DNA of 64,000 nt, taken from Chloroflexota bacterium (GTDB lineage Bacteria; Chloroflexota; Anaerolineae; Anaerolineales; UBA4823). The first letter of the stretch is position 1, and every line of letters begins with the position of its first letter. The stretch covers positions 298,467 to 362,466 of the forward strand of contig JAKOUW010000096.1 of the NCBI GenBank assembly GCA_029782365.1, read 5' to 3'. Shown one piece after another: positions 10,924 to 53,387 of the stretch. Both the position numbers and the translations under genes were made by a program. The notes below the pieces were generated by a model that did no database searches, was not told the DNA's origin, and saw nothing but the letters and a program-made list of their open reading frames with translations.

Positions 10924-11315
10924 CAGATTCTCTGCCAGATTTCTTTTTCTAAATCCCAATCACCTTTGGTGAGAAAATTTATTTCTCCCAGGGCAAGCCG
11001 CCTCAGCATATGAGCGGTGACCAGGTTCTCTTGTGGTGTATTATCCAATAAGTCGATCACTTTTCGGAAGGCCTGCTCCGCTTGGCCTTTATCGCCGGAG
11101 GCTTTCGAGATTAATCCTAATGCATACCAGGCGTCAACGCTTTGCGAATCGATCTGGACGGCTTGTTGGATATCATTACTTGCCTTTGGGAACATCCTGC
11201 GAGCATAATATGCCATCGCTCTTTTGAGGAAATCCTCCGCACGAATAGGCGCAGTGATTGTCTCCGGGTCAACAGGGACTGATTTTATTTTTACAAATTT
11301 TTTCTTGTTGTTCAT
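10923..11315 (-). CDS. TPR-repeat protein
   Basis: TPR-like helical repeats (AMAYYARRMF...AWYALGLI). Confidence 0.5.
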   Translation of the reverse strand: MNNKKKFVKIKSVPVDPETITAPIRAEDFLKRAMAYYARRMFPKASNDIQQAVQIDSQSVDAWYALGLISKASGDKGQAEQAFRKVIDLLDNTPQENLVTAHMLRRLALGEINFLTKGDWDLEKEIWQRI

Positions 11316-18112: not shown

Positions 18113-19066
<954 letters not shown>

Positions 19067-19090
19067 ATCTCGTTACCAAGGAGTTTCCAT

Positions 19091-20395
19091 ATGATTTTGG
19101 CAGATAAAATTTCCGCTCAGCTCCCCAGTTGGCGGGAGCGCACAAAAAAACTGAACAAAGAATTTGGCGAAGTCGTCATCGACAAAGTGACCATTTCTCA
19201 AGCCTTGGGGGGAATGCGCAATATCAAGAGCCTGGTCACGGATATTTCGTATGTTGACCCCGTCGAAGGCATCCGATTTCGTGGCTACACCATCCCCGAA
19301 TTAATTAACAAGCTCCCAAAACTTCGCGGCGCAGAAATGCCTTACGTGGGCGGGTTATATTACTTTCTACTGGTCGGCGAGGTCCCCACACGCGCCCAGG
19401 CAGTTGAAGTGGAAAACGAATGGAAGAAGCGCTCTAAGGTTCCTGCATATATCTTCAAAATGTTAAAAAGTATGCCTGCAGAGACGCACCCAATGACTCT
19501 CTATTCCATGGCAGTATTGGCATTGCAAACACAGTCGGAGTTCGCCCGGCAGTATCACGAAGGTTTAAAGAAAGATGATTTCTGGCTGGCAATGCTCGAA
19601 GATAGCCTGAACCTGACAGCCAAGCTTCCGGAAATCGGCGCCTATATTTATCGCATGAAATACAAAGGCGGCAAAGCGATTAAACCCAAGAAGAATTTAG
19701 ATTGGGGCGCAAATTTTGCTCATATGATGGGCGTCGAAGACCCAACCTACGCGGACTTATCTCGGTTGTACCTGATTATTCACTCCGATCATGAATCGGG
19801 CAATGTATCTGCACACGCCACTCATCTGGTTGGCTCCGCACTCTCCGACATCTATTATGCCACCTCTGCCGGTCTGAACGGCCTGGCTGGCCCTCTGCAT
19901 GGCTTGGCGAACCAGGAATGCCTGGGTTGGTTGTTGGATGTATACAAAAAATTCAATGGCGTCCCATCCAAAGATGAGCTTCGCCAATTCGCCTGGGACA
20001 CGCTGAACAGTGGGCAGGTCATTCCTGGCTACGGACACGCTGTTCTGCGCAAAACAGATCCACGTTTCACTGCCCAGGCTGAGTTTGGCAGCAAACACTT
20101 CCCGAATTCCGACATGTTCCGCCTGGCAATGATGGTCTATGAAGTCGTTCCGCCTGTCCTGGTAGAACAAGGCAAAGCAAAAGACCCATGGCCAAATGTG
20201 GATGCGATTTCTGGTTCTCTCCAGTATCACTATGGTGTGAAGGAATTTGATTTCTACACGGTTATGTTCGGTATCAGCCGTCTGCTTGGCGTCTCTGCAA
20301 ACGCTGTTTGGGCGCGTGCGCTTGGACAACCAATCGAAAGACCAAAATCCCTGACCACCGCGATGCTCGAAGCCGAGGCCGCGAAGGCCAAGTGA
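19091..20395 (+). CDS. gltA: Citrate synthase
   Basis: HSDHESGNVSAHATHLVGSALSD and LHGLANQE citrate synthase signatures. Confidence 0.85.
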   Translation: MILADKISAQLPSWRERTKKLNKEFGEVVIDKVTISQALGGMRNIKSLVTDISYVDPVEGIRFRGYTIPELINKLPKLRGAEMPYVGGLYYFLLVGEVPTRAQAVEVENEWKKRSKVPAYIFKMLKSMPAETHPMTLYSMAVLALQTQSEFARQYHEGLKKDDFWLAMLEDSLNLTAKLPEIGAYIYRMKYKGGKAIKPKKNLDWGANFAHMMGVEDPTYADLSRLYLIIHSDHESGNVSAHATHLVGSALSDIYYATSAGLNGLAGPLHGLANQECLGWLLDVYKKFNGVPSKDELRQFAWDTLNSGQVIPGYGHAVLRKTDPRFTAQAEFGSKHFPNSDMFRLAMMVYEVVPPVLVEQGKAKDPWPNVDAISGSLQYHYGVKEFDFYTVMFGISRLLGVSANAVWARALGQPIERPKSLTTAMLEAEAAKAK

Positions 20396-21139: not shown

Positions 21140-21166
21140 TTGAAAAAATTATATATAATGTATAAT
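21140..21166 (+). promoter_or_regulatory. AT-rich putative promoter region (TTGAAA ... TATAAT) in the divergent HD/GntR intergenic region
   Basis: Hexamers present but spacing is suboptimal (about 15 nt). Confidence 0.25.
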
Positions 21167-21212
21167 ATTTCCGTCTGGAGATTCTCACTCCAGGCTGCCC
21201 CTCTAATAACCT

Positions 21213-21971
21213 ATGGAAAAAATATCCGAACCCGAGTCCGAAATTGGTTTGTTGCAAAGAAAATCGCTCAAAGAAGAGTTATTTGAGATTCTTCAACACC
21301 AGATTATCGCTGGCAAATATGCACCTGGCGAGTGGTTGCGGCAGGAAGAAATATCCTCTCAATTTCATGTCAGCCAGACGCCCGTCCGCGAAGCACTGGA
21401 TTTACTTGTTTCTACAGGTCTTGCCGAACGAGTGCCTTACCGCGGTGTGCGCGTCATTCAACTCACTCAGCAGGAAATGGTAGATGCCTACATTCTCCGT
21501 CTGATTCTGGAAAGCATCGCCGCAGGTTTAGCTGCTCAAAATGCCGATGCCGACCAAACTGAATTCCTCTTCAAAACCTTGCAAGCCACCCGCGACTTAC
21601 TCAACCTACAAGACATGCCCCGCCTGCGCGAGCTTAATCGAGATTTCCACAAAACAATCGTCATGGCCGCTGGCAATGCATTGTTGTTTAAGTTGTATGA
21701 TTTGGCATCAAACACCTTTCCAGATTGGATGTTGTATGAAGCGATGTTTCGCCACCCGGAATTGCTCGCTTCCAGCCTGAACAATGAATATCACGAACAC
21801 CTTGAAATTGCCAACGCCATTGCCTCTCACCAGCCAGGCGAAGCAGCACGAACTGTTTGGCAGCATATTTACAACCTGGGCGCATCGTACAACGCGTTGT
21901 TGGCCATCCCTCAGGCGGAGATTTGGGAAAAAGAACGCCAGATTCTCGCGTTTTTATGTATTTCAAAATAA
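21213..21971 (+). CDS. GntR-family transcriptional regulator (FadR/FCD subfamily)
   Basis: wHTH VSQTPVREALDLLVSTGL. C-terminal FCD-like helical domain. Confidence 0.8.
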   Translation: MEKISEPESEIGLLQRKSLKEELFEILQHQIIAGKYAPGEWLRQEEISSQFHVSQTPVREALDLLVSTGLAERVPYRGVRVIQLTQQEMVDAYILRLILESIAAGLAAQNADADQTEFLFKTLQATRDLLNLQDMPRLRELNRDFHKTIVMAAGNALLFKLYDLASNTFPDWMLYEAMFRHPELLASSLNNEYHEHLEIANAIASHQPGEAARTVWQHIYNLGASYNALLAIPQAEIWEKERQILAFLCISK

Positions 21972-22007
21972 TCCATTGTTATCCCACCCCATATAAGGAG
22001 TAATTTT

Positions 22008-22658
22008 ATGACAACCGAACTGTTTTCCGCAATGGCGCAAAGCATCATCGACGGCGATGCTGACGTAGCGATCGAACTGGCCCAAAAAGCGATTGCCTCC
22101 GGTATGGACCCGCTTGAGGCTATCACTCAGGGGTATGTGGTTGGAGTCAACCAAGTGGGTGATGCTTTTAGCAATGGTGATGCCTTCTTACCCGAGCTGG
22201 TTATGGCAGGAGAGGCAATGAAGGCGGCTGTCGCCACCCTGGAGCCAGAAATGGCTCGCCGAGGAACTCAACGCGAAGTTTTTGGCAAAGTGGTTCTCGC
22301 TACGGTCGAGGGCGATATTCATGAAATCGGAAAATCCCTGGTGGGCACCATGTTATCAGCCTCCGGATTCCAGGTTTACGATCTGGGAGTCGATGCCTCT
22401 TCAGCGAAAATCCTTGCCAAAGTGCGTGAAGTAAACGCCGACATCGTGGCTCTTAGCGCCCTGCTCACCACAACCATGGTCAAGCAAAAAGAAGTGATCG
22501 AAGTGCTGACCCGGGAAGGCATGCATGGCAAAGTGAAAGTCATGGTGGGCGGCGCGCCGGTCACCCGTGAGTGGGTCAACAAGATTGGCGCGGATGGTTA
22601 CAGCGAAGATGCGATCGGTGCAGTTCATGTCGCCAAGCAGTTAGTCGGAAAAGAATGA
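22008..22658 (+). CDS. Methyltransferase cognate corrinoid protein (B12-binding, MtgC/MttC-like)
   Basis: B12-binding DxHxxG motif (EGDIHEIGKS). N-terminal B12 cap helix bundle. Confidence 0.85.
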   Translation: MTTELFSAMAQSIIDGDADVAIELAQKAIASGMDPLEAITQGYVVGVNQVGDAFSNGDAFLPELVMAGEAMKAAVATLEPEMARRGTQREVFGKVVLATVEGDIHEIGKSLVGTMLSASGFQVYDLGVDASSAKILAKVREVNADIVALSALLTTTMVKQKEVIEVLTREGMHGKVKVMVGGAPVTREWVNKIGADGYSEDAIGAVHVAKQLVGKE

Positions 22659-22671
22659 TCCGGTAACCACT

Positions 22672-24120
22672 ATGGCTGGAATGATTAAATCCATCACCGA
22701 TCCCAAACTGCATTTGGATATCCTCACACCCGCAGAGATCAAACGCCTGCATGAAGCCTCACTGGAGATCATTGAAACTGTTGGGGTGCGTTTTCCCTCT
22801 CACAGGGCTCTAGAAATCTGGCAGTCATTCGGAGCGCAGGTTGATTTCAAAACCATGGTCGTTAAAGCCAATGCCACATTAATCGAGACAGCTCTTCAAA
22901 AAGCGCCCCCTGCTTATTCGCTGGCAGCGCGCCGCCCAGAAGAAGACTGCTTGATGGATGGGAACCATGTGTATCTGGGCACAGATGGCTGCGGAGTCGA
23001 AATTCTCGATATCCACACCGGCCAGCGGCGCACCACCTGTTTACAGGATGTCGCAGACATCGTTCGGGTTGCAGATGCGGTTCCCGAAATTGGCTTCCAT
23101 TGGATTGCCGTTTCTGCCCAAGATAAACCTGTCGAGACACGTGGCCTGCACGAAATCCTGACTGCCTGGGAAAATTCAACCAAGCATGTGCAAACTGAGA
23201 GTATCTATCACGATCGTGAAGCACGCGCAGCTATTGAGATGGCCGCAATTGTAGCTGGGGGCAAGGATAAACTGCGCCATCGCCCAGTGCTTTCGTTGAT
23301 GCAGTGCACTGCCCCTCCGCTCGGACATGACGGCGGCAGCCTGGATGCGGCCCTATTGGCGGCTGAACATGGCATTCCCACCGGCTTTATGACTATGGCC
23401 TCTTGCCTGACCACCGGTCCCGCTACGATGGCTGGGACACTCGTGGTTGGCAACGCTGAGGTGATCTCAGCCACTGCGCTGCTTCAACTTGCCTTTCCAG
23501 GTGCGCCAGTATTTTACGCAGCAGCTCAAACCGCATCTGACTTGAGAACAGGTGCATACACCGGAGGAGGCCCTGAAGATTTTCTATTCGGAGCAGCGAC
23601 GAATGCCCTTGCCGATTATTACCATATTCCTCTTTCGATGGGCTCCTTTGCAACAGGCGCAAAAGAACCCAACTGGCAGGCTGGCGTTGAAAACAGCCTT
23701 TCCACCTTCATGGCCTCTGTCGTCATGTCGGATATGCTGCTTGGCGCCGGTTTGTTGCACGGCAGCCGTATCTGGTCATTTGCTCAAATGTTAATGGATT
23801 GTGAGATTTTTTCGATGATCCACAAAGTCATGCAAGGCATCCGTGTCGACGAAGAGTCACTCGCCTTGCAGGCGATCGCCAATGTAGGCCCAGGAGGCAA
23901 TTTCCTATCGCAAAAACATACCAAGGCTCACATGCGCGATTTGTTCTTGCCTCAATATATGGACCGCCGGCCTTACAACGAATGGGAAGCTAAAAAAGAC
24001 AACGCACCGGATTGGGCTTTGGAAAAGGCGCGTAAAATCCTGTCCACACACCGACCCGATCCCCTAGATCAGGGTATTACGCGGGAACTCAAGCGCATCA
24101 TCGCCGGTTTGGAAAAGTGA
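22672..24120 (+). CDS. MttB-superfamily methyltransferase paralog 1 (non-pyrrolysine; quaternary amine:corrinoid methyltransferase, MtgB-like)
   Basis: About 480-aa TIM-barrel MttB-family sequence. Uninterrupted ORF with no in-frame amber codon. Confidence 0.75.
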   Translation: MAGMIKSITDPKLHLDILTPAEIKRLHEASLEIIETVGVRFPSHRALEIWQSFGAQVDFKTMVVKANATLIETALQKAPPAYSLAARRPEEDCLMDGNHVYLGTDGCGVEILDIHTGQRRTTCLQDVADIVRVADAVPEIGFHWIAVSAQDKPVETRGLHEILTAWENSTKHVQTESIYHDREARAAIEMAAIVAGGKDKLRHRPVLSLMQCTAPPLGHDGGSLDAALLAAEHGIPTGFMTMASCLTTGPATMAGTLVVGNAEVISATALLQLAFPGAPVFYAAAQTASDLRTGAYTGGGPEDFLFGAATNALADYYHIPLSMGSFATGAKEPNWQAGVENSLSTFMASVVMSDMLLGAGLLHGSRIWSFAQMLMDCEIFSMIHKVMQGIRVDEESLALQAIANVGPGGNFLSQKHTKAHMRDLFLPQYMDRRPYNEWEAKKDNAPDWALEKARKILSTHRPDPLDQGITRELKRIIAGLEK

Positions 24121-25581
24121 GTGTCTATGCAGCCAAGAATTGAACAACTTACTCCCGATTTGCTGAATCGCATCCTGGACGAAGCATTTCAACTCATGCA
24201 AAAGCCTGGCATCAAAGTTCAATCAACAGAAGCGCGCAACTTGCTCGCCAGCGCGGGCGCTCAGGTTGATAAGGACACCGAGGTTGTCCGTATTTCCGAA
24301 GATCTGGTGCGTAGATCTCTAGCCACCGTACCGGCGTCCTTCAATTTGTACGATCGGTTTGGCAACTTTGCCATTACTTTCGGCGGCGACTCGGTCAATT
24401 TCGACCCGGGTTCTTCAGGAGTCCACATCCTTGATCCTGAGACATTGGAGCACAGGCCATCGTATGCCCCAGACTTGTTGAAGGTGATCCAGGTAGCTGA
24501 AATGCTGCCCCAATATGCCGCCCAATCTACCGCAATTGTATGCAACGAACTCCCGAAGGCAATTGGCGACCTTTACCGGCTTTACCTCGTTTTGTCTTAT
24601 TCTCAGAAGCCGGTTATCACGGGCTCATTCACAATCCACTCCCTGCAGACTATGTTTGATATGCTGGCGTTATTTGCTGGGGGGCGCTCAGCTCTGGCTG
24701 AAAAGCCCCAGGCCGTTTTTGATGTGTGCCCATCTCCGCCTTTAATCTGGAGTGAATTTGGCGCGCAAAATTTGATCGAGCTGGCCCGAGCCGGCGTTCC
24801 AGCCGAAATAGTCTCGATGCCGCTCGCGGGCGCCACAGCGCCGGTCACATTGCTCGGTTCAATCGTTCAGCATGCCGCTGAATGCTTGAGCGGTATCACA
24901 ATTCACCAACTGGCAAAACCCGGCTCTCCGATCGTTTGGGGCGGCGCACCAGCGATCTTTGACATGCGCAAAGGAACCACCCCGATGGGTGCGATCGAAA
25001 CAGCCATGATCGATGCGGCCTATGCCCAGGTGGGTAAATCCCTCTCCTTACCAACGCACACCTATTTGGGCGCTTCAGATGCCAAAATCGTTGATGCACA
25101 GGCTGGCATGGAAAGCGGCATGTCTGCCCTGGTAGGCGCCTTGGCTGGCATTAACATGATTTCCGGTGCAGGTATGCTGGACTTTTTGGCCTGCCAGAGC
25201 CCGGAGAAGCTGGTGATTGACGCTGAAGCGATTTCGATGGCTCTTCGCATGGTGCAGGGTATTCAACTGCGTACCAATACGCTTGCAGTCGAATTGTTTG
25301 AAGGGATCAATTTCAAAGGTGATTTTCTCAAACAGCGTTATACGCGCACCTTGTTTAGCCAAGAACAGGTGATTCCCTCTTTTGTCATTGACCGCGATTC
25401 AATCCGCGGTTGGCAGGAAAGTGGCAGCCTGGATACTTTCCAGCGCGCCATAAAACGCACCAATCAGCTCTTGCAGGCCTATCGCAAACCAGAATTCAAC
25501 CCGGCTGTCCTGTCAGAGCTTGATAACCTGGTTCTATCACTGGCTCGGCAAGCTGGTATGGACAAACTCCCGGTCGTTTAA
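24121..25581 (+). CDS. MttB-superfamily methyltransferase paralog 2 (non-pyrrolysine)
   Basis: Second 486-aa MttB-family ORF immediately downstream. Alternative ATG start at 24127. Confidence 0.75.
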   Translation: MSMQPRIEQLTPDLLNRILDEAFQLMQKPGIKVQSTEARNLLASAGAQVDKDTEVVRISEDLVRRSLATVPASFNLYDRFGNFAITFGGDSVNFDPGSSGVHILDPETLEHRPSYAPDLLKVIQVAEMLPQYAAQSTAIVCNELPKAIGDLYRLYLVLSYSQKPVITGSFTIHSLQTMFDMLALFAGGRSALAEKPQAVFDVCPSPPLIWSEFGAQNLIELARAGVPAEIVSMPLAGATAPVTLLGSIVQHAAECLSGITIHQLAKPGSPIVWGGAPAIFDMRKGTTPMGAIETAMIDAAYAQVGKSLSLPTHTYLGASDAKIVDAQAGMESGMSALVGALAGINMISGAGMLDFLACQSPEKLVIDAEAISMALRMVQGIQLRTNTLAVELFEGINFKGDFLKQRYTRTLFSQEQVIPSFVIDRDSIRGWQESGSLDTFQRAIKRTNQLLQAYRKPEFNPAVLSELDNLVLSLARQAGMDKLPVV

Positions 25582-25584
25582 ACC

Positions 25585-26766
25585 ATGGACAGCATGCTCT
25601 ACGCGGCGCAGCAAATCAAGGAACAACTGGTTGCCTGGCGGCGTGATATTCACATGCACCCCGAACTGGGATTTGAGGAAAAGCGCACATCAACATTGGT
25701 CGCAGACACTTTAGAAAGTTTGGGCTGGAAGGTACAGCGCGGTGTCGGTAAAACCGGCGTGGTGGCAGAATATGCCATACATCCTTCAGAAGGCCCTACC
25801 GTCGCCATACGCGCGGATATGGATGCCCTGCCTATCGAAGAAGCCAATGACCTTTCATTCAAATCCTGCTACCCAGGCGTGATGCATGCGTGTGGGCATG
25901 ACTGCCACACCGCAATGCTGCTGGGGGCGGCCAGCCTCCTGGTGAAAGAGGAATTCCCCGGAGTGATTCGCCTCCTTTTCCAACCCTCTGAAGAGCGCTC
26001 TGATCAGGAGGGCTTCTCCGGCGCCGCGCGGATGATACAAGATGGCGCCATGCAAGCTGTTGACCTGGTGTTGGCCTTACATGTCGATCCTTCTACCCCT
26101 GTTGGAATGGTGCGCATTTCTTCAGGTCCCTCGTCGGGCGGAGTCGATTCTTTCAGCGGTAGGATCATTGGCAAAGGCGGTCATGGAGCTCGGCCGCATG
26201 AAGCAATTGACCCTTTCTACCTTTCGGCTTTCGTTATACTGGCGATCAACGGAATTTTCTCCAGGCGCATTGATCCCTTCGACGCCAATGTGGTCAGCAT
26301 CGGAGCAGTGCACGGTGGGCAAGTCGCAAATGTAATTCCGGATCATGTCGATTTGACAGGCACGATTCGTTTCACAGAAAAACGAGTCCAACACAAACTG
26401 CATGCTGAAATCCGGAGGTGTTTTGAGGTGGTGCGGCCGCTCGGTGGTGATTATACATTGTCTTTTGAAATTGGTCTCCCGCCGATGATCAACCATCCCT
26501 CTGCCGCAAGACTGGTTCAACGCACAGCAAGCGAACTCTTGGGGCAGGCTAATGTTCTTCCGATGGAAAGAGAATTGGGCGCAGAAGATTTCGGTTTACT
26601 TTCCGAGGTGTGCCCGGGTGCTATGTTTGTCCTGGGTACAAAAATAGAAGGCGACCAGCGGTTTGGCCATAATTCCAGGTTTGATATTGACGAAAACGCA
26701 CTGCCGATTGGCACGGCTGTTTTGGCGCAGAGTGCTTTAGATTTCTTGCGCCATTCGAATAAATGA
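25585..26766 (+). CDS. M20D-family amidohydrolase (hippurate hydrolase / N-acyl-amino acid amidohydrolase-like)
   Basis: MHACGHDCHTAMLLGAA metal-binding motif of M20D. Confidence 0.8.
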   Translation: MDSMLYAAQQIKEQLVAWRRDIHMHPELGFEEKRTSTLVADTLESLGWKVQRGVGKTGVVAEYAIHPSEGPTVAIRADMDALPIEEANDLSFKSCYPGVMHACGHDCHTAMLLGAASLLVKEEFPGVIRLLFQPSEERSDQEGFSGAARMIQDGAMQAVDLVLALHVDPSTPVGMVRISSGPSSGGVDSFSGRIIGKGGHGARPHEAIDPFYLSAFVILAINGIFSRRIDPFDANVVSIGAVHGGQVANVIPDHVDLTGTIRFTEKRVQHKLHAEIRRCFEVVRPLGGDYTLSFEIGLPPMINHPSAARLVQRTASELLGQANVLPMERELGAEDFGLLSEVCPGAMFVLGTKIEGDQRFGHNSRFDIDENALPIGTAVLAQSALDFLRHSNK

Positions 26767-26792
26767 CAAACGTCACCTCTTATCGGTACAAT
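26763..26792 (+). promoter_or_regulatory. Putative internal sigma70-like promoter (ATGACA-18-TACAAT) upstream of the MtrH-like gene
   Basis: Hexamers read from sequence. A 119-nt gap precedes the downstream gene. Confidence 0.3.
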
Positions 26793-26885
26793 CAGGACAC
26801 TTTACTTGTTGTAAAATTAACCGATCCTCGAATCTGCTTAGAAAACAAGAATCCAGCCACGATATGATTTGACGAAGGAGATTGT

Positions 26886-27764
26886 ATGAACACTGTATTA
26901 AAGGGCTCACGGAAAGAAGTGAAAATTAGCATAGAGCGGCCATTTGTTATGATTGGCGAAAAAATCAACCCGACTGGACACAAGAAGCTGGCCGCTGCGC
27001 TCTCATCTGGCAATCTGGATTATGTGCGCGACCTAGCAAATCGCCAGCTTTCCTGGGGTGCCGATGTGCTGGATATTAACGTCGGAGTTCCGGGCTTGGA
27101 TGAGGTTGCCTTAGTGCGCCAGGTCGTGGAACTGGTCTCTTCCCTTACAGACGCACCGCTGTGCCTTGATTCCGCCAATCCGGCAGTTCTAGAAGCCGGT
27201 CTGGCGCTAGCCCCTGGTAAACCACTCGTTAATTCTGTCAGCGGTGAAGAGAAGCGTCTCGAGGCCGTTCTTCCCTTAGTGAGCGCGCGCGGTGCGGCAG
27301 TGATTGGTCTGACTATGGATGATAACGGAATTCCCCAAACTGCTGAAGAGCGGGTCGCCATTGCCGAGAAAATTGTCAACCGGGCAGCACAACTTGGCAT
27401 TCCGGCAGAAGATATCATCATCGATCCATTGGTGCTGACTGTGGGTTCAGATAGCAAAGCCGGCCTGGTAACACTGCACACAATCGAGCTGGTCCGCAAA
27501 GCCTTGGGGGTTAATATCAACTTGGGCGCTTCCAATGTCTCCTTCGGATTGCCTGACCGGCCAGTTATCAACCAGGCATTCCTTACTCTGGCGATTCAGG
27601 CCGGTGCTACCTGTGCCATCACAGATCCCTCCAAGCTGGGTTCCACAATTCGTGCCACAGATTTGCTCCTGGGCAAAGACGACTATTCAGCGCGTTATAT
27701 CAAGTATTTCCGGCAGGCGGAAAAACTGCGCGCTGCTGAAAGTGCTCCCACACCAATCGCCTGA
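26886..27764 (+). CDS. Methylcorrinoid:tetrahydrofolate methyltransferase (pterin-binding, MtrH/AcsE/MtgA-like)
   Basis: IGEKINPTG, LDINVGVPG and NLGASNVSFG pterin-binding signatures. Confidence 0.85.
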   Translation: MNTVLKGSRKEVKISIERPFVMIGEKINPTGHKKLAAALSSGNLDYVRDLANRQLSWGADVLDINVGVPGLDEVALVRQVVELVSSLTDAPLCLDSANPAVLEAGLALAPGKPLVNSVSGEEKRLEAVLPLVSARGAAVIGLTMDDNGIPQTAEERVAIAEKIVNRAAQLGIPAEDIIIDPLVLTVGSDSKAGLVTLHTIELVRKALGVNINLGASNVSFGLPDRPVINQAFLTLAIQAGATCAITDPSKLGSTIRATDLLLGKDDYSARYIKYFRQAEKLRAAESAPTPIA

Positions 27765-29621
27765 ATGAAATCAGAGCAGGTTGAAGTCATCCTACAGCCA
27801 GTTGGCCGGCGTGTGTTAGTCACTCCAGGCATTACTTTGCTTGAAGCTGCACGCCAGGCAGGCGTTGAATTGGTTGCCATCTGCGGTGGTGAGGGCATTT
27901 GCTCAGAATGCAAAGTGCGCCCGATGTCCGGCAAGTTTTCTCCTCCGACCTTGTCAGAGTCAGCAGAACTTTCCGCCGAGGAATTGGCTGGTGGTGTGCG
28001 CCTGGCCTGCCAGACTCTGGTGCTCAGCAGCGCCTTAGTTGAAATTCCACCAGCGTCTCTCACCACGCCTCAGCGCTTACAAATCGAAGGCCAGGAACCG
28101 CCGCAAGAAATTGACCCCACGATCACCGCCGTGGATGTCGTTGTTCCAACAGCCGGTTTGAACGATCTGCGTTCTGACCACTCTCGCCTTGTAAACACTG
28201 TCCAGGCTTGCGGTTTCTCTACGGTGAAGGCAAGCCTGGATGTGCTCGCCGAAATATCTCCAACTCTCCGCAAAAAAGGCCCCAACCAAATTATCCGTGT
28301 GCTGCTGCGCCGGCTCAGCCAACACAACACCACCGAAGTAGAGCTCGTCGCGCTCCTCGATCCTGCCTCACCCTATTTCGGCCTGGCGGTTGATATTGGC
28401 ACAACAAAGTTAGCCGCATATCTGGTTGATTTGACAGATGGAAAGACTGCCGCGCGCGCAGGTGCGATGAATCCGCAAATCAGTTACGGCGAAGATGTCA
28501 TCAGCCGCATCGCGTTTACAATCAATCAGCCTGACGGAGCCAGAACTCTCCAGGCCGCTTTGGTAAACACCTTGAACAACCTGGTTGATGAGCTGTGCAC
28601 ATCCGCCGGTGTGGCCCCCTCTTCGATCGTTGACGCGGTGATTGTCGGCAACACCTGTATGCACCATTTGTTTGCCGGCCTGCCGGTTCAGCAGTTGGGA
28701 GTGGCGCCTTACGTCGCCGCTCTGAGCGATGCTTTGATGTTCCCTGCCTCTCAGGTTGGCTTGAACCTGGCGGCAGGCGCTATGGTGTATCTACCGCCGA
28801 ATATCGCCGGGTATGTTGGTGCTGATCACATTGCTATGCTGATTGGTGCCGGGTTAATTTCTACTGACCAGGCGACGATTGCGTTGGATATCGGCACCAA
28901 TACCGAAATCAGTTTGTTTTATGCTGGTAACCATTGGAGTTGCTCTTGCGCCTCCGGACCAGCCTTCGAGGGCGCCCACATTACTAATGGCATGCGCGCC
29001 GCGGCCGGTGCCATAGAACGACTGCAAATCCATGGCGATAAAGTCCAAATCAAAACGATCGAAGATCAACCGCCTGTGGGAATCTGTGGCTCCGGTATTT
29101 TAGATACTGTTGCCGAACTGCGGCGCAACGGTTTAATCGATCACCGTGGCGTTCTGAAAGGCCAGCATCCCAACTTGCGTTTGCAGCCCGCCAGAGGTGC
29201 GCCGCCTTCGGCTTTTGTCCTTGCCTCTGCCGCGGATTCTGGATCCGGTCGTGAAATCCAAGTAACACGCTTGGATATAAACGAAATTCAGCTTGCCAAA
29301 GCGGCCATTCGGACCGGTGTTGAAACATTGCTTACAGAAGCTGGCTTGCAAGATGATGATATTGAACTATTCGTGGTTGCTGGCGCATTCGGCACCTATC
29401 TCAACCTGGAAAGTGCAGTCTGCATTGGTATGTTTCCAGATCTTCCACGTCAGGTCTTTACCCAAATTGGCAACGCGGCTGGAACTGGCGCTCGGCGGAT
29501 GCTCCTTTCTGCCAGGCAGCGTGTCCTGGCCGAACACATCAGTCAGAATGTCCGGTACGTTGAGTTGGCAGCCAACCCAGCATTCCACAAGCATTACATG
29601 AACATGCTCACCTTCCCCTAA
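27765..29621 (+). CDS. Corrinoid reductive activase (RamA/RACE type: N-terminal 2Fe-2S ferredoxin plus ASKHA/DUF4445 ATPase)
   Basis: CGGEGICSECKV plant-type ferredoxin motif. DIGTNTEI and ICGSGILD ASKHA motifs. Confidence 0.8.
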   Translation: MKSEQVEVILQPVGRRVLVTPGITLLEAARQAGVELVAICGGEGICSECKVRPMSGKFSPPTLSESAELSAEELAGGVRLACQTLVLSSALVEIPPASLTTPQRLQIEGQEPPQEIDPTITAVDVVVPTAGLNDLRSDHSRLVNTVQACGFSTVKASLDVLAEISPTLRKKGPNQIIRVLLRRLSQHNTTEVELVALLDPASPYFGLAVDIGTTKLAAYLVDLTDGKTAARAGAMNPQISYGEDVISRIAFTINQPDGARTLQAALVNTLNNLVDELCTSAGVAPSSIVDAVIVGNTCMHHLFAGLPVQQLGVAPYVAALSDALMFPASQVGLNLAAGAMVYLPPNIAGYVGADHIAMLIGAGLISTDQATIALDIGTNTEISLFYAGNHWSCSCASGPAFEGAHITNGMRAAAGAIERLQIHGDKVQIKTIEDQPPVGICGSGILDTVAELRRNGLIDHRGVLKGQHPNLRLQPARGAPPSAFVLASAADSGSGREIQVTRLDINEIQLAKAAIRTGVETLLTEAGLQDDDIELFVVAGAFGTYLNLESAVCIGMFPDLPRQVFTQIGNAAGTGARRMLLSARQRVLAEHISQNVRYVELAANPAFHKHYMNMLTFP

Positions 29622-29633
29622 TAATCCATCAAC

Positions 29634-29668
29634 AAATAGCCACCATCCGGTGGCTATTTGTTTTTCTT
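29634..29668. terminator. Bidirectional rho-independent terminator
   Basis: AAATAGCCACC-ATCC-GGTGGCTATTT followed by GTTTTTCTT. Confidence 0.7.
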
Positions 29669-30818
29669 AAGGCGTTGGCGTGGCTACTGGTTGGTTACCA
29701 CCGCCCATCCACACGAACACGCGTGGCTCGCTGGTGGAGCCTGCGCTTTCATAGACAGGTTTTCCAGACGCGTCTGTGGACGCTTGCCGGACGGTGGTTA
29801 TTTTCCAACGAAATACATGCGGCGCGTTCACTTTGGGTCGCAAAGATTGCGGCAAAATGTATTTGCTGTCGCTGACATAATCCACTAATTTAACATCCCC
29901 ACCGGTCGTCACGTCATCGATTGTCACCATATACAGCTCGTCACTGCGCAGGGTGCCCACAGAAGCCCACTGCAGAATTACATTATCGGTGCCGGAAAAT
30001 GCCGCACCATCTACGGGCAACAGCAGTGCAGGCGCCTGGTACGGGGGTGGCAGTGTTGGCGTGGGGGAAGGCCCAGGAGTGGCGAATCGCATGCAGAGTG
30101 GTATCGTTAATTTTTGGCCGATGTAAACAGAATTATTGGGTAATCCGTTATAGGTGCGGACCGCCTCCATTGGCACTCCGTAAGCTGCGGCAATTCCCCC
30201 CAATGTATCATTTTGCTGTACGGTGATATCCACTTTATCACAGGCGGCCTCAGTCTGCTCCGCCGAACTGAAAGTCGCTGAGGGCAGATCGGTAGCGGTG
30301 GGCGTCGGTTGAGGTATCAACAGCGGCATGTTCACATATAAGTCACAGTTGGTGGAAAGATTGTTCAACGAAACAATGCTTTGTACGGACACTTTGTAAA
30401 ACAACGCAATGCCAGTGCAGGTTTCATTTGCTTTGACCAGATGAGTGACTGGTGTTGCCGTGGGAGCGGGCGTAAACGTGGCAGTTGGAGGCACAGGTGT
30501 GGTGGTGATCGTAACCGTTGGAGTCGGCGTCAAAGTGTTTGTTACAGTAGGGGGAATCACGATGCTGGGTTTTTGTTTGAGGGCATAGAAAACGGTCACT
30601 GCACCGATCGCCAAAGCAACCATCACCAATAGTAATGCTATCGGCAGGCTCAATGTGACTTCAGGTATTCGGCTGGGCTGGAGCTGTTTGGTCGACGTCG
30701 CGGCTTTTTCAGCGCTGCTCAAATCGGCGCCACACACCACACATCGCGCAGCGTCGGCAGCCACCTTCGAGCCGCAGGTAGGACAAAGTTTTGTTATTGA
30801 AGGTGTATCAGGGGTCAT
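29667..30818 (-). CDS. Membrane-anchored protein with N-terminal zinc ribbon, Thr/Pro-rich linkers and two LysM domains
   Basis: CPTCGSK...CVVCGAD zinc ribbon. Single TM (LPIALLLVMVALAIGAVTVFYAL). TPTPT linkers. LysM-like motifs (DTLGGIAAAYGV, ETCTGIALFY). Confidence 0.7.
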   Translation of the reverse strand: MTPDTPSITKLCPTCGSKVAADAARCVVCGADLSSAEKAATSTKQLQPSRIPEVTLSLPIALLLVMVALAIGAVTVFYALKQKPSIVIPPTVTNTLTPTPTVTITTTPVPPTATFTPAPTATPVTHLVKANETCTGIALFYKVSVQSIVSLNNLSTNCDLYVNMPLLIPQPTPTATDLPSATFSSAEQTEAACDKVDITVQQNDTLGGIAAAYGVPMEAVRTYNGLPNNSVYIGQKLTIPLCMRFATPGPSPTPTLPPPYQAPALLLPVDGAAFSGTDNVILQWASVGTLRSDELYMVTIDDVTTGGDVKLVDYVSDSKYILPQSLRPKVNAPHVFRWKITTVRQASTDASGKPVYESAGSTSEPRVFVWMGGGNQPVATPTP

Positions 30819-31016
30819 AATTTTGAGGATTATACCAGATTAAATCTGCCATTTTCCTTCGCGGCATTTCGGCAAAGCGATCTGACATGCCTCCGATGGG
30901 ATGAAACTACATTTAAAATCCTGCGTAGATTAATTGGATTCGAATGATGCTCTCTTGAAGCAGAGTATAATGTGAAGAGTGGGATTGAGTTGTTCTACCT
31001 ATCCCAAGGAGAAAAA

Positions 31017-32984
31017 ATGGATTTTCTGATCATATTTATTTTTGCCCTGATCGTTATTTTGATCCTGGCAGGCTTGGTTGCGCTATCTGGTATCCGTATC
31101 ATCGGAAACAACCAGGTCGGTATTGTAGAAAAACGCTTTAGCCCCAAAGGCTCTGTGAAAAGCGGTTTCATCGCCTTGAATGGGGAGGCGGGCTTTCAAC
31201 CAAAGCTGCTGCGCGGTGGTATCCATTACTTGTTCCCGATCATGTACACCGTTCACCCGGCCCCGCTGGTGACAATTGCCCAAGGCAAGCTGGGTTACAT
31301 TTTTGCCCGCGATGGCGAACCGTTGGGTGCAACGCAAATCCTGGCGTCCAATGCCATGACCGCCAACTTCGAGGATGTTGAAGATTTTATCAAAAAAGGC
31401 GGTCAGCGCGGACCCCAGCGCCGGGTGCTGCGCGAAGGCACGTATGCGATCAATTTACTGCAGTTTGTGGTCATCACCGAAGAAAAAGTTTTTTCGATGC
31501 CTCTAAACAGAGATGAAGCCGAAGTGATCCGCCGCATGGCTGAATTCATCGCCGAACGGCGTGGATTCAGGCCTGTAGTTATCAAGGACAGCGATGACAG
31601 CATCGGCGTTGTCACAGTGCACGATGGTCCATCGCTTCCCCAAGGCGAAATCATCGCCCCGGTAGTCGGTGACGATCCGCACAAGCCGGAAGTTTACCAT
31701 AACAAATTCCAGGATCCAGATCACTTCCTGGCTGCCGGCGGCTTGCGTGGTCGCCAGCTTCAGGTGCTGGTCGAAGGAACGTATGCCATTAACCGGCTTT
31801 TCGCCACGGTTGAGATGATCCCTAAGACCACCATTGAAGTTGGTAATGTCGGCGTGGTTGTTTCGTACACTGGAGAAACTGGCATCGATCTATCCGGAGA
31901 ATCATACCGCCATGGCGAGTTGGTCGAACGTGGCAAGCGCGGTGTTTGGAGTGATCCGCTCTTACCTGGCAAATATGCCTTCAATACCTATGCCGGTAAA
32001 GTGATTTCGGTGCCAACGACGAACATTATTCTCAAATGGATACGCAGCGAAGTTGGCTCTCATCGCTTTGATGAAAACCTGAGTGAAATTTCGCTGATCA
32101 CCAAAGATGCCTTCGAGCCGAACTTGCCGCTATCGGTGGTCATTCACATTGATTATCAAAAAGCGCCCTTGGTGATCCAGCGCTTTGGCGATATCAAGAA
32201 ACTGGTGGAACAGACACTCGACCCAATGGTCGCCGCTTACTTCAAAAACATTGGTCAGACCCGCACACTGATCCAACTGATTCAGGAGCGCAACATCATC
32301 CAGCAAATCGCCAATAAGGAAATGCAGGACAAGTTCATGCACTACAATTTGCAGTTGGAGGAAGTTCTGATCGGCACTCCAACATCTCCCACAGGCAATA
32401 CCCAGATTGAAACTATCCTATCCCAGCTCCGTTCACGCCAGGTCGCCGAAGAGCAGGTCGAGACCTACTCACGCCAGGAAAAAGCTGCTGTGAAGGAGCG
32501 CGAATTACGCGAAGCCGAATCGCGCGCGGCGATGCAGGGCAAAATCACCGAATCAGAGCTGTCCATCACCGTCCAGACGAACCAGGGCAAAGCGGAATTC
32601 CAACGCTCACTCCAGCAGGCCGCCCAAATTCGCGCCCTCGCCGAAGCTGAAGCTGAGAAAGTCGCCCGTGTGGGTATCGCCCAGGCCATGGCAACCGAAG
32701 AGCAGGTGCGCGCTTACGGCGGACCCCAATTCCAGGTGACCCAAACCGTGCTCAACCGCTTCTCTGAAGCGATTCAGCAGTCGCGCGTTGATGTCGTTCC
32801 ACGTGTGATGGTTGGCGGCGGCGAAAATCAGGGAACTGGCAGCATCATGGAAGCATTGCTGACTTTACTGCTCTCCGAAAAGATGGGCGTTCAGGTGAGC
32901 GGCGAATCCACACGCTCTCCTGAAGTGGAAGCTATGCGCAAGAAAATCCAGGAATCTATGACGAAGGAAAATCCTCAACAATAA
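31017..32984 (+). CDS. Flotillin / SPFH (band 7) domain membrane protein
   Basis: N-terminal TM. SPFH domain. C-terminal EA-rich coiled coil (EAEAEKVARVGIAQA). ATG at 31017 with GGAG RBS. Confidence 0.8.
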   Translation: MDFLIIFIFALIVILILAGLVALSGIRIIGNNQVGIVEKRFSPKGSVKSGFIALNGEAGFQPKLLRGGIHYLFPIMYTVHPAPLVTIAQGKLGYIFARDGEPLGATQILASNAMTANFEDVEDFIKKGGQRGPQRRVLREGTYAINLLQFVVITEEKVFSMPLNRDEAEVIRRMAEFIAERRGFRPVVIKDSDDSIGVVTVHDGPSLPQGEIIAPVVGDDPHKPEVYHNKFQDPDHFLAAGGLRGRQLQVLVEGTYAINRLFATVEMIPKTTIEVGNVGVVVSYTGETGIDLSGESYRHGELVERGKRGVWSDPLLPGKYAFNTYAGKVISVPTTNIILKWIRSEVGSHRFDENLSEISLITKDAFEPNLPLSVVIHIDYQKAPLVIQRFGDIKKLVEQTLDPMVAAYFKNIGQTRTLIQLIQERNIIQQIANKEMQDKFMHYNLQLEEVLIGTPTSPTGNTQIETILSQLRSRQVAEEQVETYSRQEKAAVKERELREAESRAAMQGKITESELSITVQTNQGKAEFQRSLQQAAQIRALAEAEAEKVARVGIAQAMATEEQVRAYGGPQFQVTQTVLNRFSEAIQQSRVDVVPRVMVGGGENQGTGSIMEALLTLLLSEKMGVQVSGESTRSPEVEAMRKKIQESMTKENPQQ

Positions 32985-40326: not shown

Positions 40327-40365
40327 CGCTTTTTCCCTTTTTGCTTGATTGGAAAGGAGATAAAA

Positions 40366-40965: not shown

Positions 40966-40967
40966 GC

Positions 40968-41963: not shown

Positions 41964-41965
41964 CG

Positions 41966-43978: not shown

Positions 43979-43992
43979 GAAAGGCGGTAAAC

Positions 43993-48594: not shown

Positions 48595-48683
48595 ATAATT
48601 AAGATATTTATACTCCGGTTAATGATCGCTTTGAGCGTCATTCCCAGCCAACGCAGGTGATGGCTGGACGAGGTTTTCAAATT

Positions 48684-49583: not shown

Positions 49584-49697
49584 TCAACTTCTGCCAGAAT
49601 GAGATTTTTCTGCCTTTTTCTCCAGCAGATCTATTGACGCGTCTGGAACAATCAAATTTCATCAAATTAAGGTATTTATTATCTTATTCTAATTAGT

Positions 49698-49752
49698 TGT
49701 GATCGAGGGGTGATTTTGCGGTGATCCCCCGGTGATTTGGTCATGGTATAAG
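49698..49752 (+). promoter_or_regulatory. Putative SARP-dependent promoter of the eCIS operon. Four direct GTGAT[C/T] repeats with exact 11-nt period. The last heptamer lies 8 nt from a TATAAG -10.
   Basis: tGTGATCgagg gGTGATTttgc gGTGATCcccc gGTGATTtggtcatgg TATAAG, read directly. Confidence 0.5.
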
Positions 49753-49819
49753 CAAATAGGAAGATTTCTTCCAACTGGCTACCGCTTTTACTTTCTCAAG
49801 GAGCATCCAGCCGATCAGA

Positions 49820-50041: not shown

Positions 50042-50043
50042 GT

Positions 50044-51497: not shown

Positions 51498-51514
51498 TCG
51501 ATCTGGAGGTTCAA

Positions 51515-53377: not shown

Positions 53378-53387
53378 GAGGTAAATC

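What the first reader, a model, noticed from the sequence alone, without database searches (positions are those of the whole stretch)
21213..29621. GntR-regulated corrinoid-dependent quaternary amine demethylation cluster with two tandem non-Pyl MttB paralogs
Corrinoid protein + two different MttB-family methyltransferases + MtrH/MtgA-like methylcorrinoid:THF methyltransferase + RamA reductive activase form the complete three-component system. This is the system used for glycine betaine, proline betaine, carnitine or related substrates in anaerobes. Neither MttB ORF contains an in-frame amber codon, so both are non-pyrrolysine types. Two distinct paralogs suggest two substrates or two successive demethylation steps.
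Basis: partly seen in the sequence, partly recalled or inferred. Interest (0 to 1): 0.6.

Follow-up and report, generated by a model that had tools for sequence, protein, structure and literature searches.

The report
Corrinoid methyl-transfer operon, two novel MttBs
This is a real seven-gene operon from an Anaerolineales-type bacterium that strips methyl groups off an unidentified compound using vitamin B12; its two methyltransferases lack the known substrate-binding residues and sit beside a peptide-bond hydrolase, so the substrate is probably not a classical betaine.

Summary
Window 21213-29621 (+) is one operon: GntR/FCD regulator, corrinoid protein, two full-length non-pyrrolysine MttB-family methyltransferases (25% identical), a pterin-binding MtgA/MeTr-like methyltransferase and a corrinoid activase.

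Three corrections:
- The activase is RACo-type, not RamA.
- The THF methyltransferase is MtgA/MeTr-like, not MtrH-like.

The betaine interpretation is not supported. Both paralogs are as far from MtgB and Pyl-MttB (28-33% identity) as those two are from each other. Neither keeps MtgB's four glycine-betaine-binding residues. That includes Arg312, which is reported as conserved in all characterised quaternary-amine demethylases.

In 80 Anaerolineales genomes the corrinoid-MttB1-MttB2 core is conserved. It is interleaved with M20 amidohydrolase, an S9 acylaminoacyl-peptidase-like enzyme, a third MttB subfamily and Opp/Dpp-type peptide ABC transporters. No betaine transporter appears.

My best reading is a standard corrinoid-to-THF methyl-transfer system with two uncharacterised substrate specificities. 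The substrate is probably an amide-linked or peptide-derived N-methyl compound, but it remains unknown. This is a new variant of a known kind, of moderate interest.

The parts
21140..21168 (+). Promoter-like site (TTGAAA, 17 nt, TAATAT) in the AT-rich gap upstream of the GntR gene
   Evidence: Consensus scan, 9 of 12 matches. This is a consensus match only, not shown to function.
21149..21165 (.). Operator-like near-palindrome TTATATATAATGTATAA that overlaps the -10 element; candidate GntR binding site
   Evidence: It is unique in the 64 kb window, with 0.01 matches expected by chance. With up to 3 mismatches it lies within -72 to +30 of the GntR ORF start in 40 of 49 GntR-bearing related loci. 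It was not found upstream of the corrinoid gene in GntR-less loci.
21213..21971 (+). GntR-family regulator with FCD effector domain (FadR subfamily type)
   Evidence: PF00392 at 61.5 bits and PF07729 at 63.9 bits. No NCBIfam equivalog reaches its cut-off. Orthologues lie upstream of the cluster in 44 related loci.
22008..22658 (+). Corrinoid (cobalamin-binding) protein, the methyl carrier
   Evidence: PF02607 plus PF02310. TIGR02370 scores 224 bits against a cut-off of 215. The sequence shows DxHxxG (GDIHEIG), SALL and VGG motifs. D103 and H105 are invariant in 62 orthologues.
22672..24120 (+). MttB1: non-Pyl MttB-superfamily methyltransferase (MT-I) of an uncharacterised subfamily
   Evidence: PF06253 at 294 bits, full length. 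TIGR02369 scores 429 bits, below its 525 cut-off. Best PDB match is MtgB 9yce/2qne at E 3e-71. Identity to MtgB is 33% and to MttB 31%. Pocket positions are G106-C107, S322, A327, L357 and S365, invariant in 87 sequences.
24121..25581 (+). MttB2: second non-Pyl MttB-superfamily methyltransferase (MT-I) of a different uncharacterised subfamily; probable start is the ATG at 24127
   Evidence: PF06253 at 291 bits. TIGR02369 scores 387 bits, below its 525 cut-off. Best PDB match is MttB 7xcl at E 6e-60. It is 25% identical to MttB1. Pocket positions are S98-S99, H313, A318, S348 and L356. The junction sequence is shown.
25585..26766 (+).
   Evidence: PF01546 plus PF07687. TIGR01891 scores 349 bits against a cut-off of 154. 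Nearest solved structures are ILL2, YxeP, SAPEP and N-acyl-glutamine aminoacylase. C103, H105, E136/E142, H166 and H362 are invariant in 35 orthologues. Orthologues occur in 32 related loci.
26886..27764 (+). Methylcorrinoid:tetrahydrofolate methyltransferase (MT-II), MtgA/MeTr type
   Evidence: PF00809 at 110 bits. NF005719 scores 302 bits against a cut-off of 259. Best PDB match is D. hafniense 4o0q/4o1e/4o1f at E 5e-46, followed by MeTr/AcsE structures.
27765..29621 (+). RACo-type ATP-dependent reductive activase of corrinoid proteins, with an N-terminal [2Fe-2S] ferredoxin domain
   Evidence: PF00111, PF17650, PF17651 and PF14574 all match. PDB 3zyy matches over the full length at E 7e-110. 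The Cys motif C39/C46/C49/C81 is visible in the sequence.
29631..29662 (+). Intrinsic-terminator-like hairpin that closes the operon
   Evidence: A 14-bp stem followed by a T-run, 10 nt after the activase stop codon. The next gene is convergent.

Best explanation
The region is a single, probably GntR-autoregulated, operon for corrinoid-dependent methyl transfer to tetrahydrofolate.

Shown by homology:
- Two different MT-I enzymes (MttB1 and MttB2) would each methylate the Co(I) form of one shared corrinoid protein.
- The MtgA/MeTr-like MT-II passes the methyl group on to THF.
- The RACo-type activase re-reduces corrinoid that has oxidised to Co(II), using ATP.

Inferred:
- MttB1 and MttB2 belong to two uncharacterised MttB subfamilies. 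Their pockets differ from each other and from all characterised members. Their substrates are therefore not trimethylamine or glycine betaine, and probably not the other known acidic quaternary amines.
- The M20D amidohydrolase lies inside the operon. In relatives an acylaminoacyl-peptidase-like S9 enzyme, a third MttB and Opp/Dpp-type transporters are interleaved with the same genes. I therefore infer that the methyl donor is an amide-linked or peptide-derived N-methylated compound, such as a methylated amino acid within or released from a small peptide or N-acyl amino acid.
- The amidohydrolase would either generate the true MT-I substrate or process its product. This parallels the way the MthK kinase prepares phosphocholine for MthB.
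- The GntR protein probably represses at the palindrome that overlaps the -10 element, until the substrate or a product binds its FCD domain.

My rough confidence by layer: core three-component mechanism about 0.9; neither MtgB nor TMA-MttB about 0.8; amide-linked or peptide-derived substrate about 0.35.
For: - Domain and family hits for all seven genes.
- Full-length matches to solved MtgB and MttB, to D. hafniense MtgA and to RACo.
- Corrinoid-binding motifs in the carrier protein.
- Tight gene spacing of 0-36 nt, apart from one 119-nt gap, with a terminator after the last gene.
- Subfamily separation and pocket residues: MtgB Y97/R312/H348/F356 correspond to G/S/L/S in MttB1 and S/H/S/L in MttB2, invariant within each subfamily. 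The roles of these residues, and the conservation of R312 across MtgB, MtcB, MtpB, MtyB and MthB, come from PMC13080624.
- Synteny in 80 Anaerolineales species. MttB2 follows MttB1 in 56 of 65 loci. M20 occurs in 32 loci, S9 in 43, a third MttB in 42 and an Opp-type ABC transporter in 21-23, all on the same strand and interleaved with the methyltransferase genes.
- L033 has exactly the window's architecture.
- The S9 enzyme is nearest to acylaminoacyl peptidases. M20 is nearest to aminoacylase-type enzymes.
- Conserved flanking families are housekeeping genes, not betaine transporters.
- Operator-like site.
- Precedent for an accessory enzyme that prepares the substrate of an MttB member: MthK (PMC12155760).
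Against: - No substrate has been identified. Everything about specificity rests on alignment at 25-33% identity and on gene neighbourhood.
- In MttB1 the invariant H363, R366 and W368 lie close to the F356-equivalent position. They could rebuild a carboxylate and cation-pi site, so an acidic quaternary amine is not excluded.
- The window's own cluster has no transporter, no S9 peptidase and no third MttB. The S9 gene at 44-1843 is not the orthologue (27% identity).
- One relative (L001) has a PotD-type transporter instead of Opp.
- I could not compare the paralogs with the E. limosum MtcB, MtpB, MtyB or MthB sequences.
- M20D enzymes have broad and poorly predictable specificities.
Confidence: 0.55

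Rival explanations
1. One reading: the cluster demethylates classical free betaines (glycine betaine, proline betaine, carnitine or similar). The two paralogs would cover two such substrates.
For: - The component set is the same as in MtgBCA and related systems.
- The MT-II is closest to D. hafniense MtgA.
- The corrinoid protein's best NCBIfam hit is MtgC-like, though below cut-off at 226 bits against 310.
- MttB1's best solved relative is MtgB.
Against: - The four glycine-betaine-binding residues are absent in both paralogs. They include Arg312, reported as conserved in all five characterised non-Pyl enzymes.
- Identity to MtgB is only 33% and 28%, about the same as MtgB versus Pyl-MttB.
- No BCCT, OpuA or ProX-type transporter appears in the window or in 80 related loci. 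Peptide ABC transporters and peptidases appear instead.
Confidence: 0.15
2. MttB1 and MttB2 (with MttB-III in relatives) remove successive methyl groups from one substrate, going from trimethyl to dimethyl to monomethyl. They would not serve separate substrates.
For: - The MttB1-MttB2 pairing is strictly conserved, with near-zero spacing.
- The pockets are distinct but each is invariant within its subfamily.
- A single shared corrinoid protein, MT-II and activase serve them.
Against: - Characterised non-Pyl members remove only one methyl group from a quaternary amine, and MtgB does not use dimethylglycine or sarcosine.
- Demethylation of tertiary and secondary amines is known only with pyrrolysine enzymes (PMC9842639).
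- Some genomes have MttB1 with M20 but no MttB2 (L022, L055, L079), or duplicated MttB2.
Confidence: 0.2
3. MttB1 and MttB2 form an obligate heterodimer that acts as a single MT-I.
For: - MtgB and MttB are dimers in which the C-terminal region of one subunit completes the partner's cavity.
- The genes are adjacent, in the same frame and separated by one stop codon.
- They co-occur in 56 of 65 loci.
Against: - MttB1 orthologues exist without MttB2 (L005, L022, L055, L079).
- MttB2 is duplicated in seven or more loci.
- Each subfamily conserves its own full set of pocket residues.
- No multimer model could be run.
Confidence: 0.12
4. The M20D gene is a metabolically unrelated passenger. The MT-I enzymes would act on small free methylated compounds of unknown type, which need not be amines.
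For: - M20D enzymes are common and versatile.
- The window lacks any transporter or S9 peptidase in the cluster.
- A 119-nt gap with a promoter-like site follows the M20 gene.
Against: - M20 starts 3 nt after MttB2 and lies between the MT-I and MT-II genes.
- Orthologues sit inside the cluster in 32 related loci, including variants where M20 directly follows MttB1.
- A second hydrolase (S9) and peptide transporters are interleaved in the same way.
Confidence: 0.15

Closest known systems
MtgBCA glycine betaine:THF methyltransferase system of Desulfitobacterium hafniense (MtgB PDB 2qne/9yce; MtgA PDB 4o0q/4o1e)
   Same: - It has the same component logic: a non-Pyl MttB-family MT-I, a corrinoid protein and a pterin-binding MT-II.
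- MttB1's best solved match is MtgB (E 3e-71).
- The MT-II's best solved match is MtgA.
   Different: - MttB1 is 33% and MttB2 28% identical to MtgB.
- Y97, R312, H348 and F356 are all replaced.
- There are two MT-I genes of different subfamilies.
- An M20D amidohydrolase sits inside the operon.
- The activase is RACo-type.
- The host is Chloroflexota.
Pyrrolysine-containing trimethylamine methyltransferase MttB with MttC (Methanosarcina barkeri, PDB 7xcl)
   Same: - Same superfamily and fold.
- MttB2's best solved match (E 6e-60).
- MttB1 keeps a Gly at the G110 position.
   Different: - There is no amber codon, and Pyl334 corresponds to Ala in both paralogs.
- Tyr364 corresponds to Leu in MttB1 and Ser in MttB2.
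- TIGR02369 scores of 429 and 387 bits fall below the 525 cut-off.
- The methyl group goes to THF through a pterin-binding MT-II, not to coenzyme M.
Eubacterium limosum quaternary-amine demethylases MtpB, MtcB, MtyB and MthB, including the accessory kinase MthK
   Same: - Several MttB-family MT-I enzymes of different specificity feed a corrinoid/THF system.
- MthK sets a precedent for an accessory enzyme, encoded with the MT-I, that makes the real substrate (PMC12155760).
   Different: - Those enzymes reportedly all keep the Arg312 equivalent (PMC13080624). Here it is Ser in MttB1 and His in MttB2.
- The accessory enzyme here is an amidohydrolase, not a kinase.
- No direct sequence comparison was possible.
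RACo (reductive activator of CoFeSP, Carboxydothermus hydrogenoformans, PDB 3zyy) and the activating enzymes of O-demethylases
   Same: Full-length homology at E 7e-110, with the same four-domain architecture.
   Different: Here it is encoded with an MttB-type methylamine system rather than with CoFeSP or acetyl-CoA synthase. It is not the RamA type found with methanogen methylamine systems.

Membership tests
MttB superfamily (PF06253) | Full-length match to the family profile above the gathering score | tested here: met
   MttB1 scores 294 bits over profile positions 21-493 of 500. MttB2 scores 291 bits over 28-492 of 500. The cut-off is 25.
MttB superfamily (PF06253) | Homology across the whole TIM-barrel and dimerisation region to solved members | tested here: met
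   phmmer against PDB: MttB1 matches MtgB 9yce over residues 16-478 at E 3e-71. MttB2 matches MttB 7xcl over residues 10-465 at E 6e-60. This is sequence-level evidence only; no structure was predicted.
MttB superfamily (PF06253) | Encoded beside a cognate corrinoid protein with the DxHxxG base-off/His-on motif | tested here: met
   The corrinoid gene ends 13 nt upstream of MttB1. The GDIHEIG motif is present. D103 and H105 are invariant in 62 orthologues.
Pyrrolysine-type trimethylamine methyltransferase MttB (TIGR02369) | In-frame UAG (pyrrolysine) at the position of Pyl334 | tested here: not met
   Ala occupies that column in both paralogs. It is invariant in 87 MttB1-type sequences and present in 73 of 79 MttB2-type sequences. 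Both ORFs are uninterrupted.
Pyrrolysine-type trimethylamine methyltransferase MttB (TIGR02369) | Score at or above the curated equivalog cut-off (525 bits) | tested here: not met
   Scores are 428.6 and 387.2 bits.
Pyrrolysine-type trimethylamine methyltransferase MttB (TIGR02369) | Catalytic Tyr364 and Gly110-Thr111 (PMC9842639) | tested here: not met
   Tyr364 corresponds to Leu357 in MttB1 and Ser348 in MttB2. G110-T111 corresponds to G106-C107 in MttB1 and S98-S99 in MttB2.
MtgB glycine betaine methyltransferase | Glycine-betaine-binding residues Y97, R312, H348 and F356 (PMC13080624) | tested here: not met
   MttB1 has G106(C107)/S322/L357/S365. MttB2 has S98/H313/S348/L356. All are invariant or nearly so within each subfamily. 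The R312 column is anchored by a gap-free P...K stretch.
MtgB glycine betaine methyltransferase | Close sequence relationship to D. hafniense MtgB | tested here: not met
   Mean identity is 32.6% for MttB1 and 27.9% for MttB2. MtgB against Pyl-MttB is 30.7%.
Characterised quaternary-amine demethylases MtpB, MtcB, MtyB and MthB | Arg equivalent to MtgB R312 that binds the acidic group of the substrate (reported as conserved in all of them) | tested here: not met
   The position is Ser in MttB1 and His in MttB2. The conservation claim is taken from PMC13080624 and was not re-derived here.
Characterised quaternary-amine demethylases MtpB, MtcB, MtyB and MthB | Phylogenetic clustering with one of these enzymes | not testable with these tools
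RamA corrinoid reductive activase (TIGR04270) | Score above the family cut-off, with the RamA architecture | tested here: not met
   The score is 151.6 bits against a cut-off of 500, and the match covers only the ASKHA region 206-615. The protein has an N-terminal 2Fe-2S ferredoxin domain.
RACo-type activase | Fer2, RACo linker, RACo middle and RACo C-terminal ASKHA domains, with full-length homology to RACo | tested here: met
   All four Pfam domains score above their gathering cut-offs. PDB 3zyy matches residues 6-613 at E 7e-110. The narrower AcsV exception model is below its cut-off, at 440 bits against 800.
MeTr/MtgA pterin-binding methylcorrinoid:THF methyltransferase | Pterin-binding domain, with a score above the NF005719 cut-off | tested here: met
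   PF00809 scores 110 bits. NF005719 scores 302 bits against a cut-off of 259. The best PDB match is 4o0q/4o1e.
MtrH family | Match to MtrH-family models | tested here: not met
   NF002142 scores 20.4 bits against a cut-off of 287.
M20D amidohydrolase (TIGR01891) | Score above cut-off, with conserved Cys/His/Glu/His/His candidate metal ligands | tested here: met
   The score is 348.8 bits against a cut-off of 153.75. C103, H105, E136/E142, H166 and H362 are invariant in 35 orthologues. Assigning them as metal ligands rests on general knowledge of M20D enzymes.
GntR/FadR-type regulator acting on this operon | wHTH plus FCD domains, with a conserved palindromic site upstream | tested here: met
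   Domains are shown. The site at 21149-21165 is unique in the window and co-occurs with the GntR gene in 40 of 49 loci. Binding itself was not tested.

The most novel reading that the evidence does not exclude
The cluster is the reduced form of an Anaerolineales-wide pathway. The full pathway would import small N-methylated peptides or amino-acid conjugates through an Opp/Dpp-type transporter. It would trim them with an acylaminoacyl-peptidase-like S9 enzyme and an M20D aminoacylase. It would then harvest the N-methyl groups with two or three dedicated non-Pyl MttB subfamilies. Candidate substrates include peptide-derived trimethyl-, dimethyl- or monomethyl-lysine and N-terminally methylated residues. 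That would be a new substrate class for the MttB superfamily. If the paralogs act in sequence, it would also be the first pyrrolysine-independent corrinoid demethylation of tertiary or secondary amines.
Probability: 0.2. Interest if true: 0.75.

Novelty: new variant of a known kind. Interest (0 to 1): 0.45.

Why it matters
Genes like these are routinely scored in metagenome surveys as "mttB" or "mtgB", that is, as trimethylamine or glycine-betaine use. Surveys of Chloroflexota and Anaerolineae do this.

The evidence here says the abundant Anaerolineales copies are neither. They form two or three separate subfamilies with different pockets, and they are wired to peptide uptake and hydrolysis. 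If that holds, inferences about methylated-amine cycling and competition with methylotrophic methanogens in sediments, wetlands and wastewater would need revising for this lineage. The MttB superfamily would also gain a new class of substrate.

The conserved GntR operator and, in relatives, the dedicated binding proteins offer direct experimental routes to the substrate.

Tried and rejected
- Exact look-up of the window's MttB1 on public contigs failed. Cluster look-up showed only that the proteins sit on one unnamed 786-kb NCBI contig. The source organism is therefore inferred from relatives only: 72-78% identity, all Anaerolineales/Chloroflexota.
- I tried to obtain the MtcB, MtpB, MtyB and MthB sequences or alignments from paper supplements. 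None was held.
- I considered the chloromethane dehalogenase CdmB as a possible MttB-superfamily precedent for non-amine substrates. It belongs to the UroD superfamily, so it is irrelevant here.
- I asked whether the S9 peptidase at window 44-1843 is the missing cluster peptidase. It is only 27% identical to the cluster S9, so it is not the orthologue.
- I asked whether MttB1 and MttB2 could be one gene read through a stop codon. They are in the same frame, but the stop is TGA and each protein covers the whole family profile.
- I looked for riboswitches or other RNA families (cobalamin, THF) across the window and found none at gathering thresholds. No tRNA or pylT gene is present.
- I checked the conserved flanking families in related loci for betaine transporters or C1-pathway genes. 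They were only housekeeping genes such as NDK, a TPR protein and a nucleoside phosphorylase.
- Literature searches for this cluster type in Anaerolineae found only generic "mttB present" statements.
- I did not run structure prediction. The tools return no coordinates, so pocket geometry could not have been examined.

Full report
**1. What is there**

ORF listing and profile searches show seven co-directional genes between 21213 and 29621:
- a GntR/FCD regulator (21213-21971);
- a corrinoid protein (22008-22658);
- two MttB-family proteins (22672-24120 and 24121-25581);
- an M20D amidohydrolase (25585-26766);
- a pterin-binding methyltransferase (26886-27764);
- a RACo-type activase (27765-29621).

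Gaps between genes are 36, 13, 0, 3, 119 and 0 nt. A promoter-like site lies in the AT-rich stretch upstream of the GntR gene. A hairpin with a 14-bp stem and a T-run follows the last stop codon. The next gene is convergent.

The corrinoid protein carries the DxHxxG motif as GDIHEIG, plus SxL and GG motifs.

**2. The two MttB paralogs**

Each covers the whole PF06253 profile (294 and 291 bits). They are two complete genes, not the fragments of an amber-interrupted one. They lie in the same reading frame, separated by a single TGA. MttB2 probably starts at the ATG at 24127.

They are only 25% identical to each other. Their best solved relatives are D. hafniense MtgB for MttB1 (E 3e-71) and M. 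barkeri MttB for MttB2 (E 6e-60). Both fall below the TIGR02369 equivalog cut-off (429 and 387 bits against 525).

I aligned 200 MttB-family ORFs from related loci with MtgB and MttB. Mean identities were:

| Pair | Mean identity |
|---|---|
| MttB1 vs MttB2 | 24.6% |
| MttB1 vs MtgB | 32.6% |
| MttB1 vs MttB | 31.4% |
| MttB2 vs MtgB | 27.9% |
| MttB2 vs MttB | 30.4% |
| MtgB vs MttB | 30.7% |

So both are separate subfamilies, as deep as the split between MtgB and MttB.

**3. Active-site positions**

The pyrrolysine column (Pyl334) is Ala in both paralogs. MttB Tyr364 corresponds to Leu in MttB1 and Ser in MttB2.

The four residues shown by mutagenesis and a ligand-bound structure to bind glycine betaine in MtgB are Y97, R312, H348 and F356 (PMC13080624). 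They correspond to G106(C107)/S322/L357/S365 in MttB1 and S98/H313/S348/L356 in MttB2. These replacements are invariant or nearly so across 87 and 79 orthologues.

The R312 column sits in a gap-free stretch anchored by a conserved Pro and Lys, so this assignment is reliable. The same paper states that R312 is conserved in MtcB, MtpB, MthB and MtyB, where it is thought to pair with the acidic group of the substrate. Neither paralog has it.

One caveat applies. MttB1 has invariant H363, R366 and W368 close by. These could form a different carboxylate and cation-pi site.

**4. The other components**

- The MT-II passes the NF005719 cut-off (302 bits against 259). It is closest to D. hafniense 4o0q/4o1e, the MtgA structures, and then to MeTr/AcsE. 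The MtrH model scores only 20 bits.
- The activase has Fer2, RACo linker, RACo middle and RACo C-terminal domains. It matches RACo 3zyy over its whole length (E 7e-110). The RamA model scores 152 bits against a cut-off of 500.
- The amidohydrolase passes TIGR01891 (349 bits against 154). It is closest to ILL2, YxeP, SAPEP and an N-acyl-glutamine aminoacylase. Its Cys/His/Glu/His/His candidate metal ligands are invariant in 35 orthologues.

**5. Relatives and organism**

Homologues of both paralogs at 72-78% identity are numerous. Where named, they come from Chloroflexota/Anaerolineales MAGs. A scan of one genome per species found relatives in 442 genomes. The best 80 are all Anaerolineales-type and include Ca. 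Villigracilis and Ca. Desulfolinea. The window's own proteins sit on an unnamed 786-kb NCBI contig.

An Hdr/Mvh-like NiFe hydrogenase cluster elsewhere in the window suggests an anaerobic or facultative lifestyle.

**6. Synteny**

I searched the ORFs of 86 loci with the window's proteins and clustered all ORFs into families.

- The corrinoid-MttB1-MttB2 core is nearly universal. MttB2 directly follows MttB1 in 56 of 65 loci with enough sequence, and several of the apparent exceptions are ORF-calling artefacts.
- Three downstream layouts recur:
  - MttB2-M20-MeTr-RACo, as in the window (L033 is identical in order);
  - MttB2-S9 peptidase-third MttB subfamily-M20-MeTr-RACo;
  - MttB2-Opp/Dpp-type ABC transporter-S9 peptidase-third MttB.
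- The S9 enzyme is nearest to acylaminoacyl peptidases. The third MttB is a genuine PF06253 member.
- Real exceptions exist. L022, L055 and L079 have corrinoid-MttB1-M20 without MttB2. L005 has a solo MttB1. At least seven loci have duplicated MttB2.
- Conserved flanking families are housekeeping genes, and no betaine transporter family recurs.
- The window itself has no transporter, S9 or third MttB in the cluster. Its S9 gene at 44-1843 is not the orthologue.

**7. Regulation**

The 17-mer TTATATATAATGTATAA at 21149-21165 is a near-palindrome that overlaps the -10-like hexamer. It occurs once in the window, against 0.01 expected by chance.

With up to three mismatches it lies within -72 to +30 of the GntR ORF start in 40 of 49 loci that have the GntR gene. 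Only 7 other matches occur elsewhere in those loci. It was not found upstream of the corrinoid gene in loci without GntR. This supports, but does not prove, autoregulated GntR control.

**8. Interpretation**

The core mechanism is standard and well supported by homology. MT-I methylates Co(I)-corrinoid protein. MT-II transfers the methyl group to THF. The activase repairs Co(II).

What differs from known systems is the identity of the MT-I enzymes and the hydrolases interleaved with them. The MthK kinase, which makes phosphocholine for MthB (PMC12155760), shows that MttB clusters can encode an enzyme that prepares the true substrate. By analogy I infer that the M20D enzyme, and the S9 enzyme in relatives, cleave an amide bond in the substrate or the product. 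The methyl donor would then be peptide-derived or an N-acyl amino-acid-like compound.

This inference is moderate at best, about 0.35. Whether the paralogs serve two substrates, act in sequence or form a heteromer cannot be decided here. The MttB1-only and MttB2-duplicated loci argue against an obligate heterodimer.

**9. Literature**

Surveys report "mttB" in Anaerolineae MAGs, or equate non-Pyl homologues with mtgB. I found no description of this paired-subfamily cluster with peptidases.

**10. Verdict**

- It is a new variant of a known kind.
- Interest is moderate (0.45). The MttB superfamily is already known to hold many uncharacterised members, but the conserved link to peptide uptake and hydrolysis and the loss of the hallmark Arg make a concrete, testable lead.

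Noticed in passing
window 40345-47472 (+): A heterodisulfide-reductase/hydrogenase-like cluster. It comprises a 4Fe-4S protein, a CCG-domain protein, an HdrA-like flavoprotein with ferredoxin domains, an MvhD/FlpD protein, NiFe hydrogenase small and large subunits and a maturation protease. It suggests an anaerobic, possibly electron-bifurcating, hydrogen metabolism in the host.
   Followed up: partly
window 48657-62084 (+): A contractile-injection-system (phage-tail-like) gene set. It includes Pvc16_N, tail sheath, gp19-type tube, CIS tube, a baseplate hub (GPD) and several large ORFs with no Pfam hit. A BTAD-domain regulator precedes it.
   Followed up: partly
window 9934-10959 (-): A URO-D family protein of 341 aa (PF01208 at 85 bits). 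This fold is shared by uroporphyrinogen decarboxylase and by the MtaA/MtbA/CmuA-type corrinoid methyltransferases. It sits next to an RsmD-like methyltransferase gene. I did not determine which function applies.
   Followed up: no
window 44-1843 (+): An S9 prolyl-oligopeptidase-family gene at the window edge. It is only 27% identical to the S9 peptidase embedded in related MttB clusters, so it is not that orthologue.
   Followed up: yes
L014, L024, L027, L037 and about 40 other related loci: A third MttB subfamily (MttB-III) always follows an acylaminoacyl-peptidase-like S9 gene (42-43 loci). It is about 29% identical to MttB1 and 24% to MttB2. A fourth subfamily occurs in four loci (L010, L047, L070, L086).
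   Followed up: partly
L038 1454-5969: One relative carries three to four further divergent MttB paralogs, next to Opp-type permease genes, just upstream of its GntR-corrinoid-MttB1-MttB2 cluster. This indicates a large MttB expansion in some Anaerolineales.
   Followed up: no
window 18128-20395 (+): Malate dehydrogenase and a citrate (Si)-synthase lie just upstream of the cluster. The synthase is of the type that scores best with the eukaryote-like model (NF007128 at 649 bits; TIGR01793 at 559 bits).
   Followed up: no
window 29667-32984: Two genes lie immediately downstream of the operon: a convergent gene for a zinc-ribbon plus multi-LysM protein, and a 670-aa SPFH/Band 7 protein with no NCBIfam hit.
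   Followed up: no
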